NCBI GenBank assembly: GCA_036562625.1
Contig: DATCJV010000037.1
Location: 2,012 to 66,011, forward strand
Reading direction: 5' to 3'
Origin: Bacillota bacterium
Lineage (GTDB): Bacteria > Bacillota > UBA4882 > UBA10575
DNA length: 64,000 nt
Translations under genes and position numbers: made by a program
Shown here: positions 17,861 through 58,902 of the stretch, piece after piece
Layout: each line of letters begins with the position of its first letter
Position numbering within the stretch: position 1 is the stretch's first letter
The notes under the pieces: model-generated
Databases searched by the model: none
What the model saw: the letters and a program-made list of their open reading frames with translations, nothing else
What the model was told of the DNA's origin: nothing

Positions 17861-19474
17861 ATGCTGGAATGTCGGTACGAACAGGTGAGAACAACTCAAG
17901 TTCTGGTCGCGGATGAACAGGTCGTTTTTTTAGAGGGTGAACTGGTCTTGCCTGATGTTTGCCGGGAAGTGCGGAAGATCTATTCCTGTCGGGGTTATCT
18001 GGGTGAAATCAGAGGCGAGCTTGACGGGAAGAGTCTGTCCCTTTCCGGGCAGGTTGAAGCGCACCTGACTTATGAAGGACAGACCGGGACGGAAGAGAGG
18101 CCAGAATATGGGTATACCTGGCAAGGACCAAATGCGATTGTTTTTGCAGAGAAGATTGTCTTACCTGAAGTCGCAAGCGGGCAGAACGTGGAGTGGGATT
18201 GGGACACGGAGCTTCTCGCTTTTTCCATGGAGGTTTTATCCGGGCGAAAGGTCAGGTTCCATGCGGAAGTGGGTGTAAAGTTTAAAGCAGGGGTGGAAAA
18301 AGCTCTCACCTACCTAAATAATCTGGAGACAGAAGCCAGGATTGAGACGGTTACAGAACGGATCGTCCCGGAAGAGTTGGTGGCAAGCGTTAAGGGTAGT
18401 AAAGAAGTGAACAATCAGTATCAAATATCCTATCCAAAGGCTCCGATTGCCAGAATTATTGGGAGTGATGCCAAACCGGTCGGGGTGAAGGCGGTTGCTT
18501 CCAAGGGACGAGTTACTATAGAGGGTTTTCTGGAGGTTAATGTGGTCTATGTTTCCCTGGGCGCCGATGGGGAGGAGAGCGGAGTTAAAGCAGTGAATTG
18601 GAATCAGCAAAACGGAGGAGCCCTTCCTTTCCAAATTGTTTTAGAGGAACCAAGGGCCCAAACAGAACAGGTCTCTTTTACCAGAGTCTGGGTGGAGTCT
18701 TTGACGCTGACTTCTCCTCATCCGGAGGTTTGTCGGTTGCAAGCTGTATTGGGAGCAAAGGCGGAACTGCTCAACACCCGGACTGTGCAAGTAATCGTAG
18801 AGGCCACCGTGGAAGCAGGGATTTTGGATGTCCTGCGCCAGGATTGTGAAGTAGAAGAAATTGTCGGCGAAGCGGAGAAGGTATTACGGCTGGAAAAGAA
18901 CCTGACTCTGCCTACAGAAAGCCCCAACCTCGAGGAGATACTGATGATCTCCTCTTCCCGGCCGCGGATAATTGAATGCCAAGCCGACACGGACCGGGTC
19001 TTTCTCGAAGGCGAAGTCTACTTCACCCTTCTTTATCTCGGTGAGGGAGAAACAGATGCCGTGTTGACGAGTGCGTTCTGGGGATCACGGAGCATGGATA
19101 AGGCCGTCTTCGGCGAATTTATTGATCTGCCGGGAGTAGAAGAAGGAATGTCCGCCTCAGTTTACCTGGAGGAAGACGGAATTGATCTGGAGATTATGGA
19201 TGAGCGTTCCGTAAAGGTAAGTGTTGCCTACCGGGTGCGAGTGACCGTGAAAGCCAAAAAAAGGCTCTCTGTAGTTCGGGACTGCGCCTTAGTTACCGAA
19301 GATGAACGACCCAAACCCAGTATGCTCTTTTATTTTGTGCAAAAAGGCGATAACTTGTGGAAAGTAGCCAGACGTTATAATACCACAATGAAAGCTATTG
19401 CCGAAGCTAATAACCTGCCGGAAGAGGAGGAATTGGTGGAAGGGAGAAAGCTGCTTATTCACATAAAGAGATAA
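17861..19474 (+). CDS. LysM and DUF3794/SPOCS-like protein (SipL/SpoVID-like spore coat morphogenesis candidate)
   Basis: C-terminal LysM YFVQKGDNLWKVARRYNTTMKAIAEANNL. The repetitive beta-rich N-terminal region resembles clostridial DUF3794-LysM proteins. Confidence 0.55.
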   Translation: MLECRYEQVRTTQVLVADEQVVFLEGELVLPDVCREVRKIYSCRGYLGEIRGELDGKSLSLSGQVEAHLTYEGQTGTEERPEYGYTWQGPNAIVFAEKIVLPEVASGQNVEWDWDTELLAFSMEVLSGRKVRFHAEVGVKFKAGVEKALTYLNNLETEARIETVTERIVPEELVASVKGSKEVNNQYQISYPKAPIARIIGSDAKPVGVKAVASKGRVTIEGFLEVNVVYVSLGADGEESGVKAVNWNQQNGGALPFQIVLEEPRAQTEQVSFTRVWVESLTLTSPHPEVCRLQAVLGAKAELLNTRTVQVIVEATVEAGILDVLRQDCEVEEIVGEAEKVLRLEKNLTLPTESPNLEEILMISSSRPRIIECQADTDRVFLEGEVYFTLLYLGEGETDAVLTSAFWGSRSMDKAVFGEFIDLPGVEEGMSASVYLEEDGIDLEIMDERSVKVSVAYRVRVTVKAKKRLSVVRDCALVTEDERPKPSMLFYFVQKGDNLWKVARRYNTTMKAIAEANNLPEEEELVEGRKLLIHIKR

Positions 19475-47254: not shown

Positions 47255-47977
47255 TTATCCTCGGGAACTATCGCCATAAACAGGAGTAAAATTACTTTCA
47301 GAATTGGAGTAGGGATAAGGCATCCTATAGAACTCTCTAACCGCTTGCAGCAGACTGTTGCTGATCAGTTCCGACATTTTCATCACCAGGCTCAAGCGGG
47401 TATTCTGCAGCACCAGATACTCCATGAACCCTCCAACATTGACTACACCAATAATGTGAAAGTTGCCAACCTCCGGCAGGGTTTTATTCACCCCGGTACC
47501 GGGTTGTAGAGGACCCGGCTTGATGCTGATGCAGCCGATGCTTTCCGACTTCCCCAAACAGGCGTCGATTGCAATGACCGGCGTTTGCGGGTCTTCGGTG
47601 GAGATCTTGTTCAGTGTTTCCTCCAGATTAACCGCGTGAACCGGATTATCTAAAGTACCATAGACTTTAATGTTGGGAAGGTTGGCTGCAGTTAATCTTG
47701 AACCAATGAGCGGTCCCAGGCTGTCGCCGGTCGAGCGGTCAGTGCCGATACATAGAACAGTCAGGTAATTGCCGGCTGCAGTCAATGTTTGATCCGGAAA
47801 GGAAGACGGTCTTTTATAAAAAGGATTCTCATCATAAACGCGGTTTAAATAGATCTTCAAATGTTTTGTAATCAGTGCTTGAGCTTCTGGATGGTTTATA
47901 TGGACTCGGTAAGGAAAGAGACTGTGAAGATCCGAGGTTTTTTTGTAAAATGGAAACCACATCGGTTTGACATCCAC
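47255..47977 (-). CDS. yyaC: Sporulation protein YyaC (GPR-like spore protease family)
   Basis: CIGTDRSTGDSLGPLIGSRL, YGTLDNPVHAVNL, VIAIDACLG and IIGVVNVGGFMEYLVLQNTRLSLVM align by eye with B. subtilis YyaC. Confidence 0.85.
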   Translation of the reverse strand: MDVKPMWFPFYKKTSDLHSLFPYRVHINHPEAQALITKHLKIYLNRVYDENPFYKRPSSFPDQTLTAAGNYLTVLCIGTDRSTGDSLGPLIGSRLTAANLPNIKVYGTLDNPVHAVNLEETLNKISTEDPQTPVIAIDACLGKSESIGCISIKPGPLQPGTGVNKTLPEVGNFHIIGVVNVGGFMEYLVLQNTRLSLVMKMSELISNSLLQAVREFYRMPYPYSNSESNFTPVYGDSSRG

Positions 47978-48196: not shown

Positions 48197-49636
48197 GTGG
48201 GAAAAGACTTCTGGAATAGGTTTTTACTGAAGCTGTCTCCTAACAGCTCCGGCTGGTGGAAAAGCCTGGTTGGCTCCTGGTCATTTTGGTTATTTGTCTT
48301 TGTTCTGCTGGGAGTCTTCTCTTTTATGCATTGGTTTTACCAACCTTTCGTTTTTGAGCAAGATATCTTTATCGCCGGCGTACAAGTAGGAGACGTAGAC
48401 CTGACCGGGCTGCGTAAGGATCAAGCTTTAGAAGCTCTCCGGGAGCGCTTTGAACCATGTCTTGATCAACCCCTGGTTATTGTGGACAATGGTTTCAGAT
48501 TTTATTGTCTGCCGAGAGAATGGGGCTTTGCTTTCGATTATGAGGCAATGATGACCGAGGCCTTCGCACTGGGGCATGAAGGGAATATCCTTCGACAGTG
48601 GGCAGAGAGGCGAAAGATTAAGCAAAATCCCGTGGAGTGTCAAGCAAAAGTCATTACCGACCAAACGCTGTTAGGGGAGTTAATACGTCTGCTTGAGATG
48701 CAGGTCAATGTGGAACCTATCAAGTCAAATATTATTGTGAATAAAGAAGGACAGGTACAGCATACTCCCAGCCGGATGGGAAGGCAATTAAACACCGGCC
48801 GGTTCTTGGAACTTTTATCCGAGGGCATCAGTAGAACAGAAGAGAAGGAAGTAACTCTGCCGGTTGATCAGGTGAAGCCATCCCTGGTTGATGAAGAAGT
48901 AGCCAGCTGGGAGTTGACTAGAATAATAAGTGCTTATACCACTGAGTTTGATGAGAGTAATCCGGATCGAACCACCAACTTAAAGGTGGCCGTGGCCCGT
49001 TTGCATGGCGCTTTGCTCCCCCCGAAGCAGCAATTTTCTTTTAATCGTTGGATCGGTCCACGAAGCCTGCAACACGGATACAAGGAGGCTCCGGTGGTCT
49101 TAGAGAACGAGTTGGTTCCCGGAGTGGGCGGCGGTATTTGCCAAGTATCAACCACTCTGTATAACGCTTGGTTACTGGCTGGTTTTCGAGTGGATAAACG
49201 GCATAACCACTCGATTCCTGTTACCTATGTGGGAATGGGCCTTGATGCCGCGGTGGTTTATGGCGCCCAGGATTTGGCTTTTACCAACCCCCTCAAAACT
49301 CCGGTTTTGATCTCCGGCTTTATTGAGGGTAATACTTTGACCATTGCTTTATTAGGCAAGGTTGTGCAAAAATACCGCTATACGCTGGAACCAAAAATCG
49401 TGGAGAGAATTCCTCCCCAACTAGTGCGGGTGGAGGACCCTTCTTTAGAGTATGGGCAAGAGGTTGTAGAAAAAGAAGGGCAGGAAGGGTTTAAGGTGGA
49501 ATTATGGAGAAAAGTATTTCTAGACGGAAAAGAAGTGCGTAGTGAGCGACTGGGGCTAAGTGTATATAAACCAAAACCGTGCCTGATCAGAGTGGGGCTT
49601 CGGAAACAAGAAATCATTGTCGACAGTGAGGAATGA
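48197..49636 (+). CDS. VanW-family protein with a C-terminal G5-like domain
   Basis: N-terminal TM helix, then VanW core NLKVAVARLHGALLPPKQQFSFN...GGGICQVSTTLYNA. The C-terminus VEDPSLEYGQEVVEKEGQEGFKVELWRKVFLDGKEV is G5-like. Confidence 0.85.
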   Translation: MGKDFWNRFLLKLSPNSSGWWKSLVGSWSFWLFVFVLLGVFSFMHWFYQPFVFEQDIFIAGVQVGDVDLTGLRKDQALEALRERFEPCLDQPLVIVDNGFRFYCLPREWGFAFDYEAMMTEAFALGHEGNILRQWAERRKIKQNPVECQAKVITDQTLLGELIRLLEMQVNVEPIKSNIIVNKEGQVQHTPSRMGRQLNTGRFLELLSEGISRTEEKEVTLPVDQVKPSLVDEEVASWELTRIISAYTTEFDESNPDRTTNLKVAVARLHGALLPPKQQFSFNRWIGPRSLQHGYKEAPVVLENELVPGVGGGICQVSTTLYNAWLLAGFRVDKRHNHSIPVTYVGMGLDAAVVYGAQDLAFTNPLKTPVLISGFIEGNTLTIALLGKVVQKYRYTLEPKIVERIPPQLVRVEDPSLEYGQEVVEKEGQEGFKVELWRKVFLDGKEVRSERLGLSVYKPKPCLIRVGLRKQEIIVDSEE

Positions 49637-50187
49637 AGATGCGATCAAAAAAAAATACCGGAGTAATCTTGGCCGCGCTCGGCTTTGTTCTGCTATTGGC
49701 CCGTCACAAACTAGTAAAACTGGGGTGGATTGGGTTTTGGCCTCTTTTCATTTTAGGCCCTGGTTTATTGTTTTTATTGGAGTATTTTAGTGGCTGGCTG
49801 ATTCATAAAGATCCGACTGAAAAAAAAGAGTTATTAGTGCCAGGAGTTTTTTGTACAGGAACAGGAATCTTTTTATTCTTGTTTTCCTTGGAATATCTGC
49901 CATGGACTTATTTAAGTGGATTGTGGCCGGTCTTCCTGCTTTTTCTGGGGTTCGGTTTTTATGTGTCTTTCTGCGTTGACAGACAGGATCAAGGCCTGCT
50001 CATTCCAGGCGGGGTTCTAACCTTTGTCGGTGGGAGCGGTCTGGCGGTTTTCATAATTAAAGAACGTTTGTTTGTTCAATTCCGCTACGGCCCGCTTGTC
50101 CTTGGCATTTTACTGGCGATTGTTTTCGGGGGAGGCCTGAATTGGCGACGAAAGCGTCGCAAAGCAAATCAAACCAAGCGGGGATGA
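49633..50187 (+). CDS. Small polytopic membrane protein of unknown function
   Basis: Its start overlaps the vanW stop (ATGA). Five hydrophobic helices and a basic C-terminal tail RRKRRKANQTKRG. Confidence 0.5.
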   Translation: MKMRSKKNTGVILAALGFVLLLARHKLVKLGWIGFWPLFILGPGLLFLLEYFSGWLIHKDPTEKKELLVPGVFCTGTGIFLFLFSLEYLPWTYLSGLWPVFLLFLGFGFYVSFCVDRQDQGLLIPGGVLTFVGGSGLAVFIIKERLFVQFRYGPLVLGILLAIVFGGGLNWRRKRRKANQTKRG

Positions 50188-50305: not shown

Positions 50306-51265
50306 ATGGTAAAAACGCACACTACTACAAGCTCTGGAGAAGAAGTGGAGCGGTTGGAGTCAATTATGGAACAGTTACGGGGAGATAACGGTTGCCCGTG
50401 GGACCGGAAGCAGACCCATCAATCACTCCGCCCTTATTTGTTGGAAGAGGCCTACGAGGTTCTACAGGCTATCGAGGAAGATCAGCCTGGGCATATTCAG
50501 GAGGAACTGGGAGACCTTTTATTGCAGGTAGTTTTCCATGCGCAAATTGGAAAGGAACGGGGCGTCTTTGATTTAGCATCCGTGATCAGAGGGGTAAATG
50601 AAAAAATGATCCGCCGCCATCCTCATGTCTTCAGGAGTAGCATCAGCAATCAAAACCCACAGATACGTCCGGTGCACGGAGTGGCTGATGTCTTGGATAA
50701 CTGGGAAAAGATTAAAGCAGAGGAAAGAGCCGGTGGTTTCAACGGGGAAACGGACGGGCAAGGCACGGAAGAAGAGTCTATCCTGGATTCGGTACCTATC
50801 AACCTCCCCGCTCTACTTCAAGCGGAAAAGATCCAAAGAAAAGCGACCCAGGTAGGGTTTGACTGGTCGGATCTAAAAGGGCCCTTGTCCAAGGTCAGGG
50901 AAGAGCTTGATGAAGTAAGAAAAGCCTGGGAGGAGTGGCAGAGTTTTTTAAACAAAGGATCTGAGGCGAACCAGGGTAGTCAGGACCCCAAAATAGCCGT
51001 AAGACTCCAGTCCAAGGTAGAAGAAGAATTTGGCGACCTCTTGTTTGCACTAGTAAATACCGCCCGCTTTTTGGGGGTGCATCCGGAAATCGCACTCCTG
51101 CGGACAATTGAAAAGTTCCGACGCAGGTTTCGACGGATGGAGCAGCAGGCAAAGACTGAAGGGAGAGAATTTGCCGCTTTGACTCTCGCGGAGATGGATG
51201 AATTATGGGAGAAGAGCAAGGCAGAAGAGGAGAAGAAGGAGGATAATAACACCGGGCAAAAATAA
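50306..51265 (+). CDS. mazG: Nucleoside triphosphate pyrophosphohydrolase MazG (tandem MazG domains)
   Basis: GCPWDRKQTHQSLRPYLLEEAYEVLQAIE...EELGDLLLQVVFHA plus a second EEFGDLLFALVN EExxE/D motif. Confidence 0.88.
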   Translation: MVKTHTTTSSGEEVERLESIMEQLRGDNGCPWDRKQTHQSLRPYLLEEAYEVLQAIEEDQPGHIQEELGDLLLQVVFHAQIGKERGVFDLASVIRGVNEKMIRRHPHVFRSSISNQNPQIRPVHGVADVLDNWEKIKAEERAGGFNGETDGQGTEEESILDSVPINLPALLQAEKIQRKATQVGFDWSDLKGPLSKVREELDEVRKAWEEWQSFLNKGSEANQGSQDPKIAVRLQSKVEEEFGDLLFALVNTARFLGVHPEIALLRTIEKFRRRFRRMEQQAKTEGREFAALTLAEMDELWEKSKAEEEKKEDNNTGQK

Positions 51266-51441
51266 AGAGGGTTTTCCTATGGATGCTCGCAAGAGATTTG
51301 AGTATTAATTCCCCTCCACCTAGCTAAACTAAGATAGGCGATCCGTTCAGGACACGCCTGCTAACCGGCTGGCCTTAGGTGTCGCTCGCCGCTACTACCA
51401 ATAGCCGGATCGCTGTTTAAAATGAAAGAGGGGAGAAGGAA

Positions 51442-52410
51442 TTGAAGCATAAGTATAAGCATATTGGGCTGGCGGTACTGACTGTGATGATTGGGATTAC
51501 AGTCTCCTTCATCGGTTGTCCCGGACCGGAACGGAAGATTTTTGACCGGATCGCCAGAAAGCTGGCTGAGGAACCTCAAGTCTCTGTTTATTTTCACGAA
51601 TCCAAGACTAAAAAGACCATGCCTATTGAGGAATATCTGCTTGGAGTGGTCGCCGGTGAAATGGAGAAAGGGTGGCCGCTAGAGGCCTATGCCGCTCAAG
51701 CCATTGTCGCCCGTACTTTTACTATGGACTTTATTGCGCAGGGCGGCACCAGAAAACAGCATAATACTGATATCTCTACGGACGAGGTAGAAGCTCAGGC
51801 CTATAACGCTGAAGCAATCACCCCAATCATCAGACGGGCGGTACAGATGACCAAGGGAAAGGTTATAACTTACCGCAATCGATATGTAAAGGGATGGTTC
51901 TCCGCCAGTTGCGGAGGGAGAACCGCTTTAGCCAGAGAAGGGTTGGGCTATAAGGGAAAAGAGCCTCCTTATATGCGATCCGTATCGTGTCCGGAGGAAA
52001 AAGTCATTCCCAAGGAAGAATTGTATTGGAAAGCCACTTTAACTTCTGCAGAGATGGCGGAAGCCCTCAAGAAGTTGGGAAAGTCCATTGGAACCATTCA
52101 ACGGCTGGAAGTAGAGGAGAGGAGTAAACAATCTCATAGGGCGACAAAGTTAAATTTTATCGGTACGGAGGGGCGCGCCACTGTCCTGGGCGCGGATTTC
52201 CGCGTAGCATTAGATCCGCAAAAGGTTCGTTCAATATGGATTACGGATATTAATAACAAGAGTACCGGTATTGAGTTGAAAGGGCGCGGATATGGCCATG
52301 GAGTCGGCCTCTGTCAATGGGGAGCCCATGCTCTGGCCAAGGAAGGAAAATCTCCAGAAGAAATCATCAAGCATTATTATCCGTTGGCGGAGATTAAGGA
52401 TCTTTGGTAA
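51442..52410 (+). CDS. spoIID: Stage II sporulation protein D (SpoIID/LytB-domain lytic transglycosylase)
   Basis: EEYLLGVVAGEM...EAYAAQAIVARTF, WFSASCGGRT, and GRGYGHGVGLCQWGA near the C-terminus. TTG start follows GAGGGGAGAAGG. Confidence 0.85.
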   Translation: MKHKYKHIGLAVLTVMIGITVSFIGCPGPERKIFDRIARKLAEEPQVSVYFHESKTKKTMPIEEYLLGVVAGEMEKGWPLEAYAAQAIVARTFTMDFIAQGGTRKQHNTDISTDEVEAQAYNAEAITPIIRRAVQMTKGKVITYRNRYVKGWFSASCGGRTALAREGLGYKGKEPPYMRSVSCPEEKVIPKEELYWKATLTSAEMAEALKKLGKSIGTIQRLEVEERSKQSHRATKLNFIGTEGRATVLGADFRVALDPQKVRSIWITDINNKSTGIELKGRGYGHGVGLCQWGAHALAKEGKSPEEIIKHYYPLAEIKDLW

Positions 52411-52557
52411 AAAGGCTCTTTCTTTTCCATCCCTTGTGTTACAAAGTCCCGAAAGGCGCATATGATAATTATAGCCCATGGGAATACGAGGCGTTTTGTC
52501 AAGATTGAAGTAGATGTAGCGCTTTGCCGGAAAGGACAGAAGATTGGGGGGTGGATT

Positions 52558-52839
52558 ATGGAGGAGAAGAACACCAAGAGACTACACCAATTATCCCTCT
52601 CCGGGCGGGAAAGATTGTCACTGGAGGGTGTGACCAATGTCGGAAGTTTTGACCGGGAAGTGATTATCTTGGAGACGGAGAGGGGAGTGTTGACCATCAA
52701 GGGAGACGAACTACACATGAAACAACTTAATTTGGAACAAGGGAAACTATCCCTGACTGGACGGATCGACTCCTTGGTCTATTCCGAGGAGTCCTTGGCC
52801 CAAAGAAATAAAGGCTTCTTTGGAAAGATATTTAAGTAA
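52558..52839 (+). CDS. yabP: Sporulation protein YabP
   Basis: HQLSLSGRERLSLEGVTNVGSFDREVIILETERGVLTIKGDELHMKQLNLEQGKLSLTGRIDSLVY aligns by eye with B. subtilis YabP. The ATG at 52558 follows GGGGGGTGG; the ORF opens at 52462. Confidence 0.85.
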   Translation: MEEKNTKRLHQLSLSGRERLSLEGVTNVGSFDREVIILETERGVLTIKGDELHMKQLNLEQGKLSLTGRIDSLVYSEESLAQRNKGFFGKIFK

Positions 52840-53035
52840 CCTTTTACTTTACCGATTCAAATGAAGGTACAGGTTAAGGCCTTTGTCATGCGCTAACGAG
52901 CGTCGACAGCTTCGGGAGATGCGTAGAAAACGGGGAAAACCCGTTCATTTTTTTATCCTATTAATTCCGGAAGGATTGATTGCCGAGATATGGAATTATT
53001 ATAAGTATTTTGAATTTCATTACTGGGGGGATTAG

Positions 53036-54715
53036 ATGGCACGCAGAGGAAGGCAAGGTGTTTTCCTTGTTATATGTTTATTACTGGTTTTTATTCTGAA
53101 CGCAGGGGTCACATGGTCGGCCTTGGAAATAACCGATACCGGGGCGGAAAGTCGTTTTGGGAAGGTAAAGGCCCCGCCTCGTCCTTTACGGTGGAAGGTT
53201 CTGAAAACTGCTCATTTTGAGATCTACTTTTATCAGGGTATGGAAGAGTTGGTGATGCGTTGCCGAGATATTTTGGAAAATGAAGCTTATGAGCGCATAT
53301 ACCCGGATTTTGAAAGTTTTTACGCTCTTCACCCCTATAAAAAGATCAGGGTCATCATTTTTACCTCAAGAAAGGAGTATCAGAACTCCCGTGCGAACGG
53401 GCTCCCACTTTCGACCACCTCCGAGGGGGTGGCCAACATCCTGAACAATCGGATTGTGGCCATTCGCCAACCAACCTTCCAGGATTTAAGATGTGTCTTA
53501 ACACATGAAGTGACGCACTTGATTACTTTAGGCAATAGATCGGCTTTATCCTCTTCGTTAGGGGGGCAAGTACCGGGCTGGATGGCCGAGGGATTGGCAG
53601 AATTCTATGAACCGGAAGACACCAGGTTTTTCATGCGTGAGGTCGCCTTAAGAGACGCGGTGCTTCGTGAGGAGTTGCATACTTTATCCCATCTGGAACA
53701 GATCGGGGGCAACCTGGACTATGCAGAGGCATGGTCGTTGGTGGATTATATCGCCCGTGTCCATGGTAAGGATAAGCTGCCCGAGTTGCTGATGGAAATG
53801 TTTAAACGGGGAAACAGGGATACAACCTATGAACGGACCTTGGGTCTTAGTAAACAGGAGCTGTGGGAGAACTGGAAGACGGATTTGGAGAAACGTTATG
53901 TGGCAGGAAAGGATAATCCCAGTATAAAACAGGAACACCTTCCTTTGATCGAAGGTTACGGTCACCAACAGGATCCAAAGATCGATCGGAACGGCCGGGT
54001 ATTTTTCCTCTCTACGCATCAGAGTAAATTTTTCGACCTTTATATGTGGACACCGGATGGGTGTCGACGGTTGACCGAACAAACCGTTATCACCTACGAC
54101 ATAGCCCCGGACGGGCAAGAAGTAATCTTTATCTCCGATTCAGATGGGGAACGTAACTTATACAAGCTGGAGATTGAGTCCGGAAAAATCACTCCGTTCC
54201 CTATGGATTTGGCAAACCCGGTTGATCTGGCTTGGTCTCCCCAAGGAGACAAACTGGCCGTAGCTGTGAATACCAGAGGCGATACGGATTTATTCATCAT
54301 CGATCTTCAGGGAAGGGTCTTGATGAAGGTGGCGGCCGGCTCTACGGATGAACGCGCGCCGGCCTGGGCGCCTGATGGAGAGAGACTCGTCTATATGCTG
54401 ACCAGATTAGGCCGTCACCAACTGATGATCTGGGATGGAGAAACAAGTCGACCTTTGACCGTCCCGGATCGTGACTACTTGGAGCCGTTTTGGGGGACGG
54501 ATGATTTTATCTGGTGTATTACCGGAGAAAACGGTTATTACCAGGCGGTGGCTATTGATCCGGAAGACGGTGAGGTTCATCAGGTTTCCGGCTTTCAAGA
54601 AACACTCTTGCATGCCGTCCCGGCGCCGGATGGGCAAATTCTGTCCGACGTCTACACCGGACAGGAGACCAAGATATATTTCTGGACGCCGCAGGAGGTG
54701 AAGTCCAATGAGTAG
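53036..54715 (+). CDS. Secreted zinc metallopeptidase (MA clan, HExxH) fused to a TolB-like PD40 beta-propeller
   Basis: Signal peptide, HExxH in LTHEVTHLI with downstream GWMAEGLAEFYE, then PD40-like repeats (DGQEVIFISDSDGERNLYKLE, WSPQGDKLAVAVNTRGDTDLFIID, PAWAPDGERLVYM). Confidence 0.6.
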   Translation: MARRGRQGVFLVICLLLVFILNAGVTWSALEITDTGAESRFGKVKAPPRPLRWKVLKTAHFEIYFYQGMEELVMRCRDILENEAYERIYPDFESFYALHPYKKIRVIIFTSRKEYQNSRANGLPLSTTSEGVANILNNRIVAIRQPTFQDLRCVLTHEVTHLITLGNRSALSSSLGGQVPGWMAEGLAEFYEPEDTRFFMREVALRDAVLREELHTLSHLEQIGGNLDYAEAWSLVDYIARVHGKDKLPELLMEMFKRGNRDTTYERTLGLSKQELWENWKTDLEKRYVAGKDNPSIKQEHLPLIEGYGHQQDPKIDRNGRVFFLSTHQSKFFDLYMWTPDGCRRLTEQTVITYDIAPDGQEVIFISDSDGERNLYKLEIESGKITPFPMDLANPVDLAWSPQGDKLAVAVNTRGDTDLFIIDLQGRVLMKVAAGSTDERAPAWAPDGERLVYMLTRLGRHQLMIWDGETSRPLTVPDRDYLEPFWGTDDFIWCITGENGYYQAVAIDPEDGEVHQVSGFQETLLHAVPAPDGQILSDVYTGQETKIYFWTPQEVKSNE

Positions 54716-55847
54716 ACATGTGCTCATTAAATTTTGGAAAATACTCTTTCTTCTTCTGCCTGTATTTCTGCTCTTTCCTGCAGAGAGTGGAGCGGAGGAT
54801 GATCCGCCCTGGGAGAGTTATCGTCCGAAACTGGAAATGGAGATGCTTTACCCCGTTCTATATTATGATGAGCAAGACGGGTTTTTGGGCCTGCTTTATG
54901 GACAGATGAGTGATGTCTTACGCGAACATGATTTACGATTTATTTTTTATATCAATGAGTGGGATGACGAAGCGCAGTATGTGGTGGGATACACTAGGCA
55001 CCTCGGACTGTGGTCTATAGGAGCCAACCTCTACTCGGGGCCTGTTTATTTAGGTTGTCTTTGGTCTCCGGGCTTTTCTGAATACCAAAATGGACTGAGT
55101 CTGCTCGCTAGTTATCATTGGAATAATGAATCACGCATAGATTTTCGTCTGCAATGGGAGAAGTTTGAAACAAAGGCCTATTCTTTGGTTCTGAAAGATC
55201 TACCGGAAGATGGGAAGGTTGTCGGGTGGGATATTACCTTGAATCAGGATACTCATGACTTGCTCGCGCAGAATGGAACCAGGCAGTATCTAAGTGTAGG
55301 CGGGGCATTCCCCATTTTCGGCACAGATTACGATTATTTGAAGATTGAAGGGGACCACCGCAGCTACCATCCACTGGGGAAGAGATTGTCCTTGATTTGG
55401 AGCGCGCGGGCGGGTAAGATTTGGGGAGATTATCCTTCACACCGGGGGTTTTTAGTAGGAGGAATTCAGCATACCAGTGCTAGCGCTCTTGGTAGCCTGA
55501 TTAATACGGGCCTTTTAGGTTTTCTCTCCGATTCCGTGTTGCGGGGATACGACACAGACGCCTTTGTGGGTGACTCCTTTGTCATCTCCAATTTGGAATT
55601 AAGGGGATTGCTCTGGCCTGGTGACTACTATAACATTGGCGGTTTTGCCTGTATCAGTTCTTTATTTATTGATGCGGGCCAAATTTGGCGTCAGCAAAAG
55701 CAGTTAGCCTCCAAACCACCGGCCGCCTATGGCGTTGGGCTAAAGTTTTTGATTCTGCGTGGATTGATGTTGGGCATCGATTATGCGGTGCCTTTTGATC
55801 CGGGAGAGGATGCTAAATGGCATTTTAGTTTGGGAGAAGTTTTCTAA
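54708..55847 (+). CDS. Omp85-family outer-membrane beta-barrel without POTRA domains
   Basis: Signal peptide FLLLPVFLLFPAESGA, the loop-6-type motif VLRGYD, and a C-terminus GIDYAVPFDPGEDAKWHFSLGEVF ending in Phe. The ATG overlaps the upstream gene by 8 nt, and GGAGGTG lies 8 nt upstream. Confidence 0.6.
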   Translation: MSRHVLIKFWKILFLLLPVFLLFPAESGAEDDPPWESYRPKLEMEMLYPVLYYDEQDGFLGLLYGQMSDVLREHDLRFIFYINEWDDEAQYVVGYTRHLGLWSIGANLYSGPVYLGCLWSPGFSEYQNGLSLLASYHWNNESRIDFRLQWEKFETKAYSLVLKDLPEDGKVVGWDITLNQDTHDLLAQNGTRQYLSVGGAFPIFGTDYDYLKIEGDHRSYHPLGKRLSLIWSARAGKIWGDYPSHRGFLVGGIQHTSASALGSLINTGLLGFLSDSVLRGYDTDAFVGDSFVISNLELRGLLWPGDYYNIGGFACISSLFIDAGQIWRQQKQLASKPPAAYGVGLKFLILRGLMLGIDYAVPFDPGEDAKWHFSLGEVF

Positions 55848-56156: not shown

Positions 56157-56756
56157 ATGTATAGGTTTTGCTTACATCAGCTGGGAATAATGATTACTCT
56201 TTTGGCTCTAGCCTTTTTGACCCGAACTTCATGTCAAGCCACGATCGCGGATCTGCCTTATATGAATAGAACCGTAATCGAGCAGAAGATTCTAGAAGCG
56301 GAAAGCGGCGGAGGTCGGCTTCGCCGGATCACCGGCGAGGTTTTGGTGGCGGGAAAAACCAAATTAACCTTGTGTACTGAGGAAGGGGTCATTCAAGATT
56401 TTTCCCTCACTGGCACGGATCTTTATTTAAACGGGCAACCAAGCAGTGGAGAGGCTTTACGCCCAGTTTATCCAGGCAGGAATTTTCAAGCTCGCCTTTA
56501 TGTAGATGAAGAGGACAGGGTAAAGGTAGTCGAAGCCTGGTATATCGGAGGGGAAGGGCAATTAGTCCGTTTGCATCCACCGGATGGGGACGGGTATTTT
56601 TCCATTACTCTTCGAGCCCTGGATACCCCTGAGGAAAGACGGTTTTTGGTAAGTCAAGAACTGAATGAGGTAATCAAGAGTATCCCCCCGGAAACCTGTC
56701 TTTACTATCAACTGAATCTCAATGGAGAGATTGGCTACATTTTGCTCAGTCCGTAA
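56157..56756 (+). CDS. Hypothetical exported protein
   Basis: N-terminal hydrophobic segment IMITLLALAFLTRTSCQA. No recognisable family. Confidence 0.45.
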   Translation: MYRFCLHQLGIMITLLALAFLTRTSCQATIADLPYMNRTVIEQKILEAESGGGRLRRITGEVLVAGKTKLTLCTEEGVIQDFSLTGTDLYLNGQPSSGEALRPVYPGRNFQARLYVDEEDRVKVVEAWYIGGEGQLVRLHPPDGDGYFSITLRALDTPEERRFLVSQELNEVIKSIPPETCLYYQLNLNGEIGYILLSP

Positions 56757-56895: not shown

Positions 56896-57966
56896 ATGAG
56901 CATTACAGCGCTTGTTGTTGATGATTCTGCCTTTATGAGACAATTGATTAAGAAGATTTTGGAGACCGATCCTGAGATTAAGGTTGTCGGGGTAGCAATT
57001 AATGGCGAAGACGCCCTGAAAAAAGTGGACTTTTTTGATCCTCAGGTTATTACCCTCGATTTAGAAATGCCACAGATGGACGGTTTAACCTGCCTGAAGC
57101 GGCTGATGATGGAGAACCCTCGTCCGGTGGTGATCATTAGTTCTTGGGCGAAGGAAGGCGCGGAGGAAACTTTGAAGGCCCTGGAATTAGGGGCGGTTGA
57201 CTTTATTACTAAGCCCGGGATTACTTCACCGGAAGATTTTTGGGAGCTCAAAGACGAAATTATTCAGAAGGTTAAGAACGCCTCTTTGGCTCATCCGGAA
57301 CGTGCCAATGTGATCACACAAAAGAAGCCTTCTACGGAAATTGTCAAGGTTAGAAAAACCGCTTCCACACATCTGAAGACGAACAACCCCAAGGTGGTGT
57401 GTATTGGAGCGTCGACAGGTGGACCCCGCGCTCTGCAATATATTCTTACTCACCTTCCTGCAGATTTTCCGTTACCGATCTTAATTGCCCAGCATATGCC
57501 GGAGGATTTTATAGGAATTTTTGCCACCCGGTTGAATGGTTTGGTGTCGATCGAAATCAAAGTGGCTGAAGAAGGAGATTTGCTGGTGCCAGGGAGGGCG
57601 CTGATTGCTCCATCCGCTTTGCAGACCGGCTTAGTTGAGAAAGGTAATGAGGTGCGGATCAAGCTCACTAAGGAGTCAACGATTTACCGGCCGTCCATTG
57701 ATCATCTTTTTTTCTCTGTGGCTAAAGTTTTCAAGGGAGATGCCGTCTCTATTTTGTTAACCGGGATGGGGGCTGATGGGGCGAAAGGCTTAAAGGAGTT
57801 ACATTCACTTGGCGCCCGTACCATCGCTGAAGCGGAAGAGACGTGTGTGATTTATGGAATGCCGCGGGTTGCCGTAGAGATGGAGGCGGTGGAATACATT
57901 TATCCACTGGATCGTATTCCGGAACTATTATGCAGTCTAGTCAATCAAGGAACAATCCCGTCATAG
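56896..57966 (+). CDS. cheB: Chemotaxis response regulator protein-glutamate methylesterase
   Basis: Receiver domain (LVVDDSAFMRQ...ITLDLEMPQMDGL) followed by the CheB methylesterase domain (VVCIGASTGGPRAL, LTGMGADGAKG). Confidence 0.88.
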   Translation: MSITALVVDDSAFMRQLIKKILETDPEIKVVGVAINGEDALKKVDFFDPQVITLDLEMPQMDGLTCLKRLMMENPRPVVIISSWAKEGAEETLKALELGAVDFITKPGITSPEDFWELKDEIIQKVKNASLAHPERANVITQKKPSTEIVKVRKTASTHLKTNNPKVVCIGASTGGPRALQYILTHLPADFPLPILIAQHMPEDFIGIFATRLNGLVSIEIKVAEEGDLLVPGRALIAPSALQTGLVEKGNEVRIKLTKESTIYRPSIDHLFFSVAKVFKGDAVSILLTGMGADGAKGLKELHSLGARTIAEAEETCVIYGMPRVAVEMEAVEYIYPLDRIPELLCSLVNQGTIPS

Positions 57967-58038
57967 AAAACGCAGGGATTGTTCGGCTTTCAAACTCTAC
58001 TGTGCTCCATCGGATAAAAGGACAATTGGAGGACAAAA

Positions 58039-58902
58039 ATGAGTTTATGGAGACTGTTGGAAAATAAAATAAATGAGATCCCCACTTTACCTGTGGTAGC
58101 CAATAAAATTATTGAAATTTTGGATAATCCCCGCTCCTCTGCAAATGATCTGGAAAAGGTGATCAGCATTGATCAATCTTTAACCGCTAGAGTTTTGAGA
58201 CTGGTTAACTCCGCTTATTATGGTTTTCCCCGCCGAATTACTACAGTGGCCCAAGGAGTAGTCATTTTAGGATTTGATGTTATTAAGCATCTGACATTAT
58301 CCGTTTCAATCGCAGATATTTTTCGATTGAAAGGGAATAGTCCGATTTTTGACCGTTCATCCTTATGGAAGCACTCTGTGGGCACTGCGGTTTGTGCGAA
58401 ACTTTTAGCCCGAAAAGCTTCCCTACCCTTGTTGGAAGAGGCTTTTATCGCCGGTTTACTCCATGATGTGGGGATTGTCATCATTGATTACTATTTTCCG
58501 GAAAAATTTGAGGAAATATTGGAAATGATGGAGAGAGAACATATTCCTCTCATCAAAGCCGAACTAAGAGTATTAGGTTTTACCCATGCCTTGGTGGGAA
58601 AGTTGGTTGTAAAAAAATGGAATTTTCCGGACCTGTTGGTGGAGACGATTGGTTATCATAATAAACCTTTTCAGCACGACAACTATTGTGCCAATATCGC
58701 CTTGGTTTATGCGGCCGATGCCCTCTGCCGCCAGTTCGGGGAGGGGATGGATGGAGATATAACCGATCAACGTTTGGAGACGGAAGTGTGGTCTTGGTTA
58801 GGCTTGCCCTGGTCCGAAAGGCAAGAAGTCTTCCAGGAGATGAGTAAGGAGATTAAGAAGGCGGCGGAATTTGTGAACCTGGTTCCTTTAAGGACGGGAT
58901 AA
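58039..58902 (+). CDS. HDOD domain signalling protein
   Basis: LPTLPVVANKIIEILDNPRSSANDLEKVISIDQSLTARVLRLVNSAYYGFPRRITTVAQGVVILG is a canonical HDOD N-terminus. GLLHDVG follows. Confidence 0.82.
   Translation: MSLWRLLENKINEIPTLPVVANKIIEILDNPRSSANDLEKVISIDQSLTARVLRLVNSAYYGFPRRITTVAQGVVILGFDVIKHLTLSVSIADIFRLKGNSPIFDRSSLWKHSVGTAVCAKLLARKASLPLLEEAFIAGLLHDVGIVIIDYYFPEKFEEILEMMEREHIPLIKAELRVLGFTHALVGKLVVKKWNFPDLLVETIGYHNKPFQHDNYCANIALVYAADALCRQFGEGMDGDITDQRLETEVWSWLGLPWSERQEVFQEMSKEIKKAAEFVNLVPLRTG

What the first reader, a model, noticed from the sequence alone, without database searches (positions are those of the whole stretch)
53036..55847. HExxH peptidase/TolB-like propeller fusion translationally coupled to a POTRA-less Omp85 barrel
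A 559-aa exported protein combines an MA-clan zinc peptidase module (THEVTHL ... GWMAEGLAEFYE) with PD40/TolB-type beta-propeller repeats. Its last 8 nt overlap the start of a 379-aa Omp85-family barrel, and GGAGGTG sits inside the upstream gene. The barrel has a signal peptide, VLRGYD loop-6 motif and terminal ...SLGEVF. It has only ~30 residues before the barrel, so there is no room for POTRA domains. Omp85 proteins lacking an N-terminal domain exist but their function is essentially unknown. A fixed pairing with a periplasmic protease-propeller suggests a dedicated two-component envelope module, perhaps for substrate capture or processing at a barrel, or for outer-membrane quality control.
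Basis: partly seen in the sequence, partly recalled or inferred. Interest (0 to 1): 0.65.

Follow-up and report, generated by a model that had tools for sequence, protein, structure and literature searches.

The report
Split peptidase-propeller / Omp85 barrel module
Two overlapping genes in a spore-forming Firmicute that has an outer membrane encode, as separate proteins, the zinc-peptidase/propeller half and the membrane-barrel half of a protein that is a single chain in many other phyla, so the two almost certainly work together, although the job of this family has never been tested.

Summary
ORF 53036-54715 encodes an exported gluzincin-type zinc peptidase followed by a six-bladed TolB-type propeller. 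ORF 54708-55847 overlaps it by 8 nt and encodes a 16-strand Omp85 barrel with its own signal peptide and no POTRA domain.

The pair is not a new kind of system. It is the two-gene form of the "WD40-like Omp85" subfamily catalogued by Heinz & Lithgow in 2014. Members of that subfamily carry an aminopeptidase-like domain, a TolB-like propeller and an Omp85 barrel in one ~950-aa chain.

- Each half, searched independently, finds the same fused proteins.
- 70 of 70 complete non-Bacillota genes are fused. All Bacillota loci with both genes on the contig (7 gene arrangements besides the window) are split at the same point.
- The zinc site and the loop-6 RG motif are kept in 75/75 and 74-75/75 family members.

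My best reading is a periplasmic metallopeptidase-propeller subunit that docks on its own outer-membrane barrel and acts in envelope-protein processing or quality control. The link between the two genes is strongly supported. The function is inferred only.

The new elements are the split form, its occurrence in a sporulating diderm Bacillota clade (Capillibacterium relatives), and a conserved sigma-H-like promoter motif upstream. I rate it a new variant of a known kind, of moderate interest.

The parts
52929..52955 (+). Terminator-like hairpin (AACGGG-gaaaa-CCCGTT) plus a T-run after yabP. It probably separates the pair from the upstream sporulation genes.
   Evidence: Consensus scan. Sequence read. 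A hairpin plus T-run is also visible in L006, L001 and L087 in the alignment.
52970..52996 (+). Conserved sigma-H-like promoter motif, GAAGGATTG-N11-ATGGAAT. This is inferred, not shown to be a promoter.
   Evidence: TATGGAA is the only invariant block in the upstream alignment. RnAGGA-N..-RnnGAA is present upstream of the peptidase gene in 7/7 loci. There are 4 strict matches in the 64-kb window against 0.8 expected. The 17-nt AGGA..GAAT spacing is the same as in mapped C. difficile SigH promoters (PMC7438776, Table 3).
53036..54715 (+). Gene for the exported peptidase-propeller protein (559 aa).
53036..53119 (+). Signal peptide (residues 1-28; cleavage around TWS/A, judged by eye). No conserved lipobox.
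   Evidence: Sequence. Alignment A2 shows a variable hydrophobic N-terminus followed by the invariant A29-x-E31.
53156..53194 (+). Invariant N-terminal motif F41-G42-x-x-K45...W53 of the mature protein. Role unknown.
   Evidence: F 73/75, G 75/75, W 71/75. Low model confidence.
53183..53905 (+). Gluzincin (clan MA) catalytic domain, residues ~50-290.
   Evidence: PF13485. AF2 domain model with pLDDT 83.5. Foldseek matches to the ColT/ColH/ColG peptidase domains and to M1 aminopeptidases.
53504..53518 (+). HEVTH zinc-binding and catalytic motif (H157 E158 H161).
   Evidence: Invariant in 75/75 family members and in alignments A2, A3 and A4.
53588..53602 (+). EGLAE segment. E185 is the likely third zinc ligand, and E189 is also invariant.
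   Evidence: 75/75. Lies on helix 181-190 in the model.
53933..54691 (+). Six-bladed PD40/TolB-type beta-propeller, residues ~300-552.
   Evidence: PD40 and the TolB TIGR02800 propeller region. 23 strands in six groups in the model. Foldseek match to TolB at E 1.5e-14.
54694..54700 (+). Shine-Dalgarno sequence GGAGGTG for the barrel gene, inside the upstream gene.
   Evidence: Purine-rich equivalents are present in the orthologous junctions.
54708..55847 (+). Gene for the Omp85 barrel protein (379 aa). It overlaps the upstream gene by 8 nt.
54708..54794 (+). The barrel's own signal peptide (residues 1-29; cleavage around SGA/ED, judged by eye).
   Evidence: This segment has no counterpart in the fused proteins.
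54834..55835 (+). 16-strand beta-barrel (residues 43-376).
   Evidence: AF2 model (pseudo-fusion residue n equals barrel residue n-530). Foldseek matches to TamA and BamA barrels with TM 0.6-0.67 over the target.
55536..55550 (+). Loop-6 motif VLRGY.
   Evidence: Invariant in 22 orthologues. R 75/75 and G 74/75 in the wider family.
55821..55844 (+). C-terminal strand HFSLGEVF ending in Phe (beta-signal-like).
   Evidence: A terminal aromatic residue is present in 69/75 members; the other 6 are alignment gaps.

Best explanation
The two genes encode the two halves of one outer-membrane machine: the split form of the 'WD40-like Omp85' family.

**How I think it works**
- Both proteins are exported by Sec, each through its own signal peptide.
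- The 379-aa protein folds into a 16-strand Omp85 barrel in the outer membrane.
- The 559-aa protein stays in the periplasm. It docks non-covalently under that barrel, where the equivalent domains are covalently attached in the fused relatives.
- Once docked, it works as a membrane-anchored zinc endo- or aminopeptidase.
- The six-bladed propeller probably binds or gates the substrate, as propellers do in tricorn and S9 peptidases.
- The most likely job is trimming, maturing or degrading envelope proteins at the outer membrane. This resembles what BepA does at BAM, but with unrelated parts.
- Tight translational coupling keeps the two subunits in balance.
- A conserved sigma-H-like promoter suggests expression at the transition to stationary phase or sporulation.

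**Shown**
- Gene structure and domain identities.
- An intact and conserved active site.
- Equivalence of the pair to the fused family.
- Conservation of the pair.

**Inferred**
- Periplasmic location.
- Physical docking.
- Proteolytic role and substrate class.
- Promoter type.
For: **Both halves find the same fused family**
- Domains are called above curated thresholds.
- A search with the peptidase-propeller finds ~930-980-aa proteins carrying Peptidase_MA_2 + PD40 + Omp85 in one chain.
- A profile of the barrel alone, scanned against 1.84 billion proteins, has long proteins of the same family as its best full-length hits outside its own orthologues. Six of the seven scanned show all three Pfam families. 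The seventh lacks only the Pfam Omp85 call. A true 5-POTRA BamA first appears at E ~1e-6.
- A concatenation of the two window proteins aligns collinearly with 20 natural fusions.

**Split versus fused**
- 70/70 complete genes in non-Bacillota genomes are fused.
- All Bacillota loci that hold both genes are split at the same profile position.

**Conserved functional residues**
- The zinc site H-E-x-x-H...E...E is kept in 75/75 members, and the loop-6 R and G in 75/75 and 74/75. Both catalysis and Omp85-type barrel function therefore appear to be under selection.

**Structure**
- Models show a gluzincin fold, a six-bladed propeller and a 16-strand barrel.

**Topology argument**
- A version split into two Sec-exported proteins cannot use a covalent passenger-barrel mechanism. 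That favours a periplasmic complex.

**Organism and literature**
- The orthologous pair is present in Capillibacterium thermochitinicola. Electron microscopy of that organism shows an outer membrane, and it forms spores (PMC8375423).
- Heinz & Lithgow's Table S3 lists TolB and aminopeptidase (F3, 4fgm) best hits for their WD40-like Omp85 cluster. My Foldseek searches returned TolB structures, the same aminopeptidase protein (F3, as entries 3q7j and 1z1w) and the same entry 4fgm.
Against: - There is no direct evidence that the two proteins touch. The pseudo-fusion model has only moderate global confidence (pTM 0.56; 21-sequence alignment), and no inter-domain error estimate was available.
- No member of the family, fused or split, has been studied experimentally.
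- Conserved neighbours of the fused genes in other phyla do not point to one pathway. They include a BamB-like propeller, RNase R and MlaE.
- Within the Bacillota clade the whole region is syntenic, so adjacency there adds little on its own.
- The surface-exposed alternative is not excluded for the fused proteins.
- I could not check whether the genome also has a canonical BamA.
Confidence: 0.55

Rival explanations
1. Secretion device. The barrel exports the peptidase-propeller to the cell surface or the medium, like a two-partner (TpsB/TpsA) or type Vd (PlpD) system. The enzyme would then act outside the cell, for example in nutrient acquisition.
For: - Omp85-superfamily barrels encoded next to, or fused with, enzymes do act as exporters (PlpD and TPS systems, as discussed in PMC4104836, and PMC11358297).
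- The closest structural relatives of the catalytic domain include secreted M9 collagenases.
- The lineage is a polymer degrader (chitin).
Against: - No POTRA domain is present to receive a substrate.
- The partner has no TPS domain.
- The barrel is Omp85-type (PF01103), not ShlB-type.
- A folded six-bladed propeller cannot pass through a 16-strand barrel. A covalent passenger mechanism is impossible once the genes are split and each product has its own signal peptide.
Confidence: 0.13
2. Specialised insertase. The barrel is a BamA/TamA-like assembly factor for a subset of outer-membrane proteins. The propeller acts mainly as a BamB-like scaffold, and the peptidase is secondary. This is the Heinz & Lithgow suggestion.
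For: - The loop-6 RG motif and the terminal aromatic strand typical of working Omp85 proteins are conserved.
- The barrel matches BamA/TamA structurally.
- In 12 loci from at least 5 phyla, a BamB-like PQQ propeller gene follows the fused gene directly.
- PMC4104836 calls the family reminiscent of a BamA-BamB fusion.
Against: - The zinc site is invariant in 75/75 members. Catalysis is therefore selected, not just a scaffold.
- There are no POTRA domains.
- BamA model scores are far below cut-off (30.9 against 297 bits).
- The family is patchily distributed, unlike an essential insertase.
Confidence: 0.15
3. TolB-like envelope tether. The propeller binds a peptidoglycan-associated partner, and the module stabilises or remodels the link between outer membrane and cell wall, for example at division or sporulation. 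[quoted passage not shown]
For: - The propeller is closest to TolB in both sequence and structure.
- PMC12204202 proposes that TolB arose from an OMP-TolB-like fusion by loss of the barrel.
- The pair sits among sporulation and cell-wall genes (VanW, SpoIID, YabP), downstream of a sigma-H-like motif.
Against: - The TolB equivalog score is far below cut-off (70.7 against 343 bits), and only the propeller part matches.
- No partner is known.
- The conserved peptidase is unexplained under this reading.
- Synteny with sporulation genes is clade-wide and is not seen in other phyla.
Confidence: 0.1
4. No functional link. The two genes are neighbours only through inherited synteny, or the pair is a broken (frameshifted) copy of a fused gene on its way to decay.
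For: The whole region is syntenic across the clade. One metagenome locus (L086) has a further break in the peptidase-propeller gene.
Against: - The split is at the same point in all Bacillota loci, down to 44% identity.
- Junction sequences differ, but every barrel keeps a start codon, a ribosome-binding site and its own signal peptide.
- Both proteins keep all functional motifs.
- The two parts are fused in 70/70 complete genes elsewhere.
Confidence: 0.03

Closest known systems
'WD40-like' (WD40-Omp85) subfamily of the Omp85 superfamily (Heinz & Lithgow 2014, PMC4104836); probably the 'OMP-TolB-like' proteins of PMC12204202
   Same: - It has the same three modules in the same order: aminopeptidase-like gluzincin, TolB-type PD40 propeller, Omp85 barrel.
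- Alignment is collinear over the full length.
- The barrel and the N-terminal half find these proteins independently.
- Table S3 of the paper lists TolB 2ivz/2w8b, tricorn factor F3 and 4fgm as best hits. My Foldseek searches returned the same TolB entries, the same F3 protein (as 3q7j/1z1w) and 4fgm.
   Different: - Here the chain is divided into two translationally coupled genes, and the barrel has acquired (or kept) its own signal peptide.
- The host is a sporulating diderm Bacillota clade rather than the FCB-group and other phyla.
- The Bacillota sequences are only 20-28% identical to the fused proteins. They form a separate long branch.
- The function of the family is unknown in either form.
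'noNterm' Omp85 proteins (PMC4104836; Leptospira LIC12252/12254/12258, PMC11358297)
   Same: A 16-strand Omp85 barrel with a signal peptide and no periplasmic domain. Function unknown.
   Different: This barrel's nearest relatives are the barrels of the fused peptidase-propeller family, not other stand-alone barrels. Its 'missing' N-terminal domains are encoded by the gene immediately upstream.
BepA acting at the BAM complex (E. coli; e.g. PMC8423444, PMC13478230)
   Same: Works-like analogy only. BepA is a periplasmic zinc metallopeptidase with a protein-binding domain that operates at an Omp85 barrel for outer-membrane-protein quality control.
   Different: - BepA belongs to the M48 family and uses TPR repeats. 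This protein is a Peptidase_MA_2 gluzincin with a propeller.
- BepA binds BamA through its POTRA domains and lipoproteins. This barrel has neither.
- No substrate is known here.
TolB (Tol-Pal system)
   Same: A six-bladed PD40 propeller. TolB is the best structural and sequence match for residues ~330-540.
   Different: - It scores far below the TolB family cut-off.
- The N-terminal TolB domain is replaced by a peptidase.
- No Tol-Pal genes lie nearby.
Two-partner secretion (TpsB/TpsA) and PlpD (type Vd)
   Same: An Omp85-superfamily barrel is encoded with, or fused to, an enzyme.
   Different: There is no POTRA domain, no TPS domain and no ShlB-type barrel.
Tricorn protease and S9 (DPP-IV/acylaminoacyl) peptidases
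   Same: A PD40-type propeller is coupled to a peptidase. The orthologues carry Tricorn_N/Tricorn_2nd Pfam hits, and Foldseek hits include an S9 carboxypeptidase and tricorn.
   Different: Those catalytic domains are serine peptidases, and the proteins are cytoplasmic or soluble. Here the catalytic domain is a zinc gluzincin tied to a membrane barrel.

Membership tests
Omp85 superfamily (379-aa protein) | Match to the Omp85 barrel model PF01103 above the curated threshold | tested here: met
   58 bits against 24.
Omp85 superfamily (379-aa protein) | 16-strand beta-barrel | tested here: met
   16 strands in the AF2 model. Foldseek matches to TamA 4c00/4n74 and to BamA barrels, E ~1e-11 to 1e-12, TM 0.6-0.67 over the target. 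This is a prediction, not an experiment.
Omp85 superfamily (379-aa protein) | Conserved loop-6 (V/I)RG(Y/F) motif between strands 11 and 12 | tested here: met
   VLRGY at 277-281, invariant in 22 orthologues. R 75/75 and G 74/75 in the family. The loop lies between strands 11 and 12 in the model.
Omp85 superfamily (379-aa protein) | Periplasmic POTRA domain(s) N-terminal to the barrel | tested here: not met
   No POTRA hit. About 13 mature residues precede strand 1. Known subfamilies (noNterm, WD40-like) also lack POTRA.
BamA | Equivalog model score, and five POTRA domains | tested here: not met
   TIGR03303 scores 30.9 bits against a cut-off of 297. No POTRA domain.
WD40-like Omp85 subfamily (Heinz & Lithgow 2014) | PD40/TolB-like propeller (with aminopeptidase-like domain) N-terminal to an Omp85 barrel in one polypeptide | tested here: not met
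   The modules are homologous and collinear but lie on two polypeptides. I therefore file it as a split variant, not a standard member.
WD40-like Omp85 subfamily (Heinz & Lithgow 2014) | The barrel is specifically related to the barrels of that subfamily | tested here: met
   The best full-length hits of the barrel-only profile are fused proteins (E 9e-15 to 1e-9). BamA appears only from ~1e-6.
Gluzincin metallopeptidases (clan MA(E); Pfam Peptidase_MA_2) | HExxH plus a downstream Glu ligand | tested here: met
   H157-E158-x-x-H161, E185 (and E189). 75/75 conserved.
Gluzincin metallopeptidases (clan MA(E); Pfam Peptidase_MA_2) | Family model above threshold, and a thermolysin-like catalytic fold | tested here: met
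   PF13485 scores 39.8 bits against 32.4. The domain model has pLDDT 83.5. Foldseek matches M9 and M1 catalytic domains with E 2e-4 and TM 0.6.
Gluzincin metallopeptidases (clan MA(E); Pfam Peptidase_MA_2) | Zinc-dependent peptidase activity | not testable with these tools
   Needs purified protein and an E158A control.
TolB | Equivalog score, and the N-terminal alpha/beta TolB domain with TolA box | tested here: not met
   TIGR02800 scores 70.7 bits against a cut-off of 343. Only profile positions 168-378 (the propeller) match.
Two-partner secretion | A TPS domain in the cargo, and a POTRA-bearing ShlB-type barrel | tested here: not met
   Pfam and NCBIfam give no such hits.
Sigma-H-dependent promoter | RnAGGAwww -35 box and RnnGAATww -10 box at the right spacing, plus SigH-dependent transcription | tested here: inconclusive
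   The motif and spacing are present and conserved in 7/7 loci. They match mapped C. difficile SigH promoters. No transcription data exist. The B. subtilis consensus is quoted from memory.

The most novel reading that the evidence does not exclude
In endospore-forming diderm Bacillota this module may be switched on by sigma-H at the onset of sporulation. It would then act as a dedicated protease-barrel machine that remodels or clears outer-membrane proteins while the cell rebuilds its envelope. The open problem of how sporulating diderms remake an outer membrane is set out in PMC13018214.

The split form may also be a living example of the step proposed for the origin of TolB: a TolB-like periplasmic module set free from its Omp85 barrel (PMC12204202).
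Probability: 0.1. Interest if true: 0.75.

Novelty: new variant of a known kind. Interest (0 to 1): 0.45.

Why it matters
The peptidase-propeller-Omp85 family is one of the ten Omp85 subfamilies. It is widespread: more than 360 relatives turned up in a species-level genome set, across at least ten phyla. No member has been characterised.

A natural two-gene version is useful for three reasons:
- It shows that the periplasmic module can work when it is not covalently attached. This argues for a periplasmic complex and against a passenger-secretion mechanism.
- It gives separate, smaller proteins that can be expressed, purified and mixed to test binding and activity.
- It places the family in a cultured, spore-forming Firmicute with an outer membrane (Capillibacterium thermochitinicola). 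That lineage is relevant to how outer membranes are built, and to the proposal that TolB descends from such fusions.

The invariant zinc site says the family's function is proteolytic, which narrows the experiments.

Tried and rejected
1. **Programmed frameshift producing a fused protein.** Rejected. The junctions differ among orthologues (overlap 8, overlap 4, gap 7 nt) and share no slippery site. The barrel ORF begins with a hydrophobic signal peptide that the natural fusions lack.
2. **Broken pseudogene.** Rejected. See the fourth rival explanation.
3. **BamA, TolB or TPS membership.** Curated model scores fall far below the cut-offs, and the defining domains are absent.
4. **Other independent split cases.** I looked among stand-alone barrels found by the barrel profile (P0186, P0153). 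Both lie on contigs of 1.2-1.5 kb with no neighbours, so they were uninformative. P0154, P0157, P0184 and P0189 look like N-terminally truncated fused proteins.
5. **Direction of the split/fusion event.** A neighbour-joining tree places the Bacillota clade (60/60 bootstrap) on a long branch outside both paralogue groups of fused proteins. It shows one event but not its direction. The wide spread of the fused form only suggests that the split is derived.
6. **Function from conserved neighbours of the fused genes.** The neighbours are a BamB-like propeller (12 loci), RNase R (18), a 1,200-aa unknown protein (19) and MlaE (4). There is no single theme.
7. **The 199-aa downstream ORF as a third component.** It is confined to the Bacillota loci and missing from L004/L005, so it is not a core part.
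8. **The conserved upstream motif read as sigma-54.** The spacing between GG and GC does not fit, and L002 lacks TTGC.
9. **Solved structures.** None covers the architecture. Only TolB and BamA match, domain by domain.
11. **Inter-domain geometry.** The tools return no coordinates or error matrix, so the docking geometry in the pseudo-fusion model could not be assessed.

Full report
**1. The observation**

The window contains two same-strand ORFs, 53036-54715 (559 aa) and 54708-55847 (379 aa). They overlap by 8 nt (ATGAGTAG), and GGAGGTG sits 7 nt upstream of the second start codon.

Pfam calls all three expected families above their gathering scores:
- Peptidase_MA_2: 39.8 bits against 32.4, residues 104-284.
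- PD40: 34.9 bits against 20.9.
- Omp85: 58 bits against 24, residues 123-379.

NCBIfam adds a sub-threshold match to the propeller part of TolB. BamA and Omp85_fam matches are also sub-threshold.

- HEVTH at residues 157-161.
- GWMAEGLAEFYE at 181-192.
- VLRGY at barrel residues 277-281.
- The terminal SLGEVF.

Both proteins begin with signal-peptide-like segments, judged by eye. Neither has a conserved lipobox.

**2. The organism and the local context**

The barrel has only 23 relatives at E <= 1e-3 in 5.8 billion clustered proteins. All are 308-395 aa, Omp85-only, and come from Firmicutes/Bacillota metagenome bins or from Capillibacterium.

The closest genome locus (L006, a Bacillota MAG) is 93% identical at the protein level.

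C. thermochitinicola carries the orthologous pair. Its description reports Gram-negative staining, spore formation, and an outer membrane, peptidoglycan layer and plasma membrane visible by electron microscopy (PMC8375423). The host lineage is therefore a sporulating diderm member of Bacillota (NCBI: incertae sedis).

The surrounding genes run VanW/G5, a LiaF-like membrane protein, MazG, SpoIID, YabP, the pair, a 199-aa unknown, CheB, HDOD, Rho, then CtsR-McsA-McsB. As I recall it, this is the conserved mfd...yabN-yabP...ctsR region of Firmicute chromosomes.

A terminator-like hairpin with a T-run follows yabP at 52929-52955.

**3. Conservation of the pair**

In every related contig that includes both genes, the peptidase-propeller gene lies directly upstream of the barrel gene. 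These are L001, L002/3, L004/5, L006, L086 and L087. L088 starts at the barrel gene, so it is uninformative.

The junctions are always tight: an overlap of 8 nt (window, L001), an overlap of 4 nt (L004/5), or a gap of 7 nt (L002/3). Each has a purine-rich ribosome-binding site, and each barrel has its own hydrophobic N-terminus.

The whole region is syntenic across this clade, so adjacency inside the clade is not independent evidence of a functional link.

**4. The decisive evidence: natural fusions**

*Search with the peptidase-propeller.* After its ~30 Bacillota orthologues, it finds proteins of ~930-980 aa from other phyla whose precomputed Pfam content is Peptidase_MA_2 + PD40/Tricorn + Omp85. 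Their sequences show a signal peptide, the same N-terminal FGxNK...W motif, HExxH...WxxEGxAE, PD40 repeats and a C-terminal barrel ending in Phe.

*Alignment.* A concatenation of the two window proteins, without the barrel's signal peptide, aligns collinearly with 20 of these fusions over its full length.

*Search with the barrel alone.* I ran a profile of the 22 barrel orthologues against 1.84 billion representative proteins.
- Only 10 hits have E <= 1e-10.
- Apart from its own orthologues and fragments, the best full-length hits are 933-1109-aa proteins matched in their C-terminal ~350 residues.
- Of the seven I scanned, six carry all three Pfam families. The seventh lacks only the Pfam Omp85 call.
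- A true five-POTRA BamA first appears at E ~1e-6.

Both halves therefore point to the same fused family.

*Scan of one genome per species.* This returned at least 361 relatives. Among the 80 kept:
- All 70 non-Bacillota genes not cut by a contig end are single ORFs spanning the whole profile.
- The other 9 non-Bacillota genes are cut by contig ends.
- The Bacillota loci are always split at the same profile position: the peptidase-propeller ends at ~557-563 and the barrel starts at ~584-592, of 927 positions.

The fused form occurs in Bacteroidota, Ignavibacteriota/Kapabacteria, Chlorobiota, Calditrichota, Rhodothermia/Balneolales, Marinimicrobia, Eisenbacteria, Krumholzibacteriia, Latescibacterota, KSB1, Gemmatimonadota, Armatimonadota, Aminicenantes and a Limnocylindrales bin.

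**5. Structure**

*Whole pseudo-fusion.* AlphaFold2 gave mean pLDDT 75.5 and pTM 0.56 from 21 sequences. The model contains:
- an alpha/beta domain at residues ~50-290, with the HExxH and EGLAE helices;
- six four-stranded blades at ~300-550;
- 16 barrel strands, with a long loop between strands 11 and 12.

Only about 13 mature residues precede strand 1 of the barrel.

Foldseek against the PDB matched TolB (E 1.5e-14), TamA (3.6e-12) and BamA barrels (~1e-11; TM 0.6-0.67 over barrel-only targets).

*Peptidase domain alone.* Modelled with 53 sequences, it reached pLDDT 83.5 and pTM 0.83. It matched gluzincin catalytic domains: clostridial M9 collagenase peptidase domains (E 2e-4, TM 0.6) and M1 aminopeptidases such as tricorn factor F3, IRAP and APN.

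*Solved structures.* None covers the whole architecture.

*Conservation.* Across 70 fused and 5 Bacillota sequences:
- the two His, the catalytic Glu and both downstream Glu are kept in 75/75;
- the loop-6 Arg is kept in 75/75 and the Gly in 74/75;
- the terminal residue is aromatic in 69/75, and the other 6 are alignment gaps.

The enzyme is therefore very likely active, and the barrel very likely behaves as a normal Omp85.

**6. What is already known**

Heinz & Lithgow (2014, PMC4104836) divided the Omp85/TpsB superfamily into ten subfamilies. These include 'noNterm' and a 'WD40-like'/WD40-Omp85 cluster whose N-terminal part resembles TolB. They compared the latter to a BamA-BamB fusion and left its function open.

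Their supplementary tables give PF07676 + PF01103 domain profiles for that cluster. The Phyre2 best hits are BamA/TamA for the barrel, TolB 2ivz/2w8b for the propeller, and aminopeptidases (1z5h, 4kxd, 4fgm) for a third domain. My searches independently returned the same TolB entries, the same F3 protein (as 3q7j/1z1w) and 4fgm.

Bettin et al. (2024, PMC11358297) mention this subfamily as having 'WD40 and peptidase domains'.

I found no experimental work on any member, and no description of a split form. 'WD40-Omp85' occurs in two papers only. A 2026 paper on outer-membrane rebuilding in sporulating diderm Firmicutes (PMC13018214) deals with BamA, SonA and SonB in Negativicutes. It does not mention this pair.

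**7. How it most likely works**

*Shown:* two Sec-type exported products, a conserved zinc site, a conserved Omp85 barrel, and equivalence to a single-chain protein elsewhere.

*Inferred:* in Omp85 proteins the N-terminus of strand 1 faces the periplasm, so the N-terminal domains of the fused proteins are periplasmic by default.

The split form strengthens this inference. The peptidase-propeller is released into the periplasm by its own signal peptide. It cannot use a covalent passenger-barrel route, and the barrel has no POTRA domain to receive a separate cargo.

The simplest model is a non-covalent periplasmic complex, with a zinc peptidase and its substrate-binding or gating propeller held under an outer-membrane barrel. 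It would act on envelope proteins, in processing or quality control. This is analogous in logic to BepA at BAM but built from unrelated parts.

I give the complex and periplasmic-protease reading about 0.55 overall. Within that, the link between the two genes is close to certain, and the substrate class is a guess.

The rivals are export of the enzyme (0.13), a specialised insertase with a scaffold (0.15), a TolB-like tether (0.10) and no functional link (0.03).

**8. Evolution**

A neighbour-joining tree of 70 fusions and 5 Bacillota pseudo-fusions shows the Bacillota sequences as one clade (60/60 bootstrap). The clade sits on a long branch outside two paralogue groups of fused proteins.

A single split or fusion event therefore explains the data, but the tree does not give its direction. 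The breadth of the fused form suggests that the split is derived. This is not proven.

**9. Regulation (a lead, not a result)**

Upstream regions are otherwise poorly conserved (42% mean column identity). Within them, all loci keep RnAGGAwww-N11-ATGGAAn 67-170 nt before the start codon. The window copy is at 52970-52996.

The strict pattern occurs 4 times in 64 kb on both strands, against 0.8 expected.

The boxes and the 17-nt AGGA..GAAT spacing equal those of mapped SigH promoters of C. difficile (PMC7438776, Table 3). They also fit the B. subtilis sigma-H consensus as I remember it. This hints at expression at the transition to stationary phase or sporulation.

**10. Verdict**

The interpretation as a dedicated two-part module is supported.

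The system belongs to a catalogued but unstudied Omp85 subfamily, of which this is a previously undescribed split variant in a sporulating diderm Firmicute. Interest is moderate (0.45).

It does not overturn anything. It does offer a clean handle on an uncharacterised, widespread outer-membrane family, and it bears on the proposed origin of TolB.

Noticed in passing
window 52970-52996: A sigma-H-like promoter motif (GAAGGATTG-N11-ATGGAAT) is conserved upstream of the peptidase gene in all 7 orthologous loci. Its box spacing is the same as in mapped C. difficile SigH promoters.
   Followed up: partly
window 53156-53194 (residues 41-53 of the 559-aa protein): The motif F-G-x-(N/V)-K...W, directly after the signal peptide, is as conserved as the zinc site across split and fused family members. 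It is modelled with low confidence, and its role is unknown.
   Followed up: partly
window 56157-56756: A 199-aa ORF with a hydrophobic N-terminus and no Pfam or NCBIfam match. It is conserved directly downstream of the barrel gene in most Bacillota loci (L001-3, L006, L086-88), absent from L004/5, and absent from all fused-gene loci.
   Followed up: partly
loci L034, L035, L039, L048, L055, L059, L066, L068, L072, L073, L080, L085: In one paralogue group of the fused proteins, spanning at least 5 phyla, a BamB-like PQQ beta-propeller gene follows the fused gene immediately, often overlapping its stop codon.
   Followed up: partly
loci L022-L084 (18-19 loci; Ignavibacteria, Balneolales, Bacteroidota): In the other paralogue group, RNase R lies directly upstream of the fused gene, with a ~1,200-aa protein lacking any Pfam match upstream of that. 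In four Calditrichota loci, MlaE lies directly downstream.
   Followed up: no
L086 3322-4987: The peptidase-propeller gene is called as two pieces (341 + 215 aa) in this metagenome contig. This is probably an assembly frameshift, but it could be a further split.
   Followed up: no
window 52840-53035 and 50306-52839: The region resembles the Firmicute yabN(mazG)-yabP-yabQ-divIC neighbourhood. Here SpoIID is inserted before YabP, and no YabQ/DivIC-like ORF follows. L086 has a 57-aa gene after yabP.
   Followed up: no
window 48197-50187: A gene for a VanW + PG_binding_4 + G5 protein overlaps by 4 nt the start of a gene for a LiaF/LiaI-like membrane protein. This second tightly coupled envelope pair is conserved in L002-L006.
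   Followed up: no
window 56896-58902: CheB (response-regulator methylesterase) and an HDOD-domain protein sit together, with no other chemotaxis genes in the window. HDOD is missing in L002-L005 and L088.
   Followed up: no
window 32060-34843 (-): A 927-aa ORF with a single SdrD_B/CarboxypepD_reg-like domain near its C-terminus. Probably a large surface or secreted protein.
   Followed up: no
window 17861-19474: A SipL (SPOCS) + LysM protein, a clostridial-type spore-coat morphogenetic factor. Together with SpoIID, YabP and the DUF1256/YyaC-like gene (47255-47977), it is consistent with a sporulating host.
   Followed up: no
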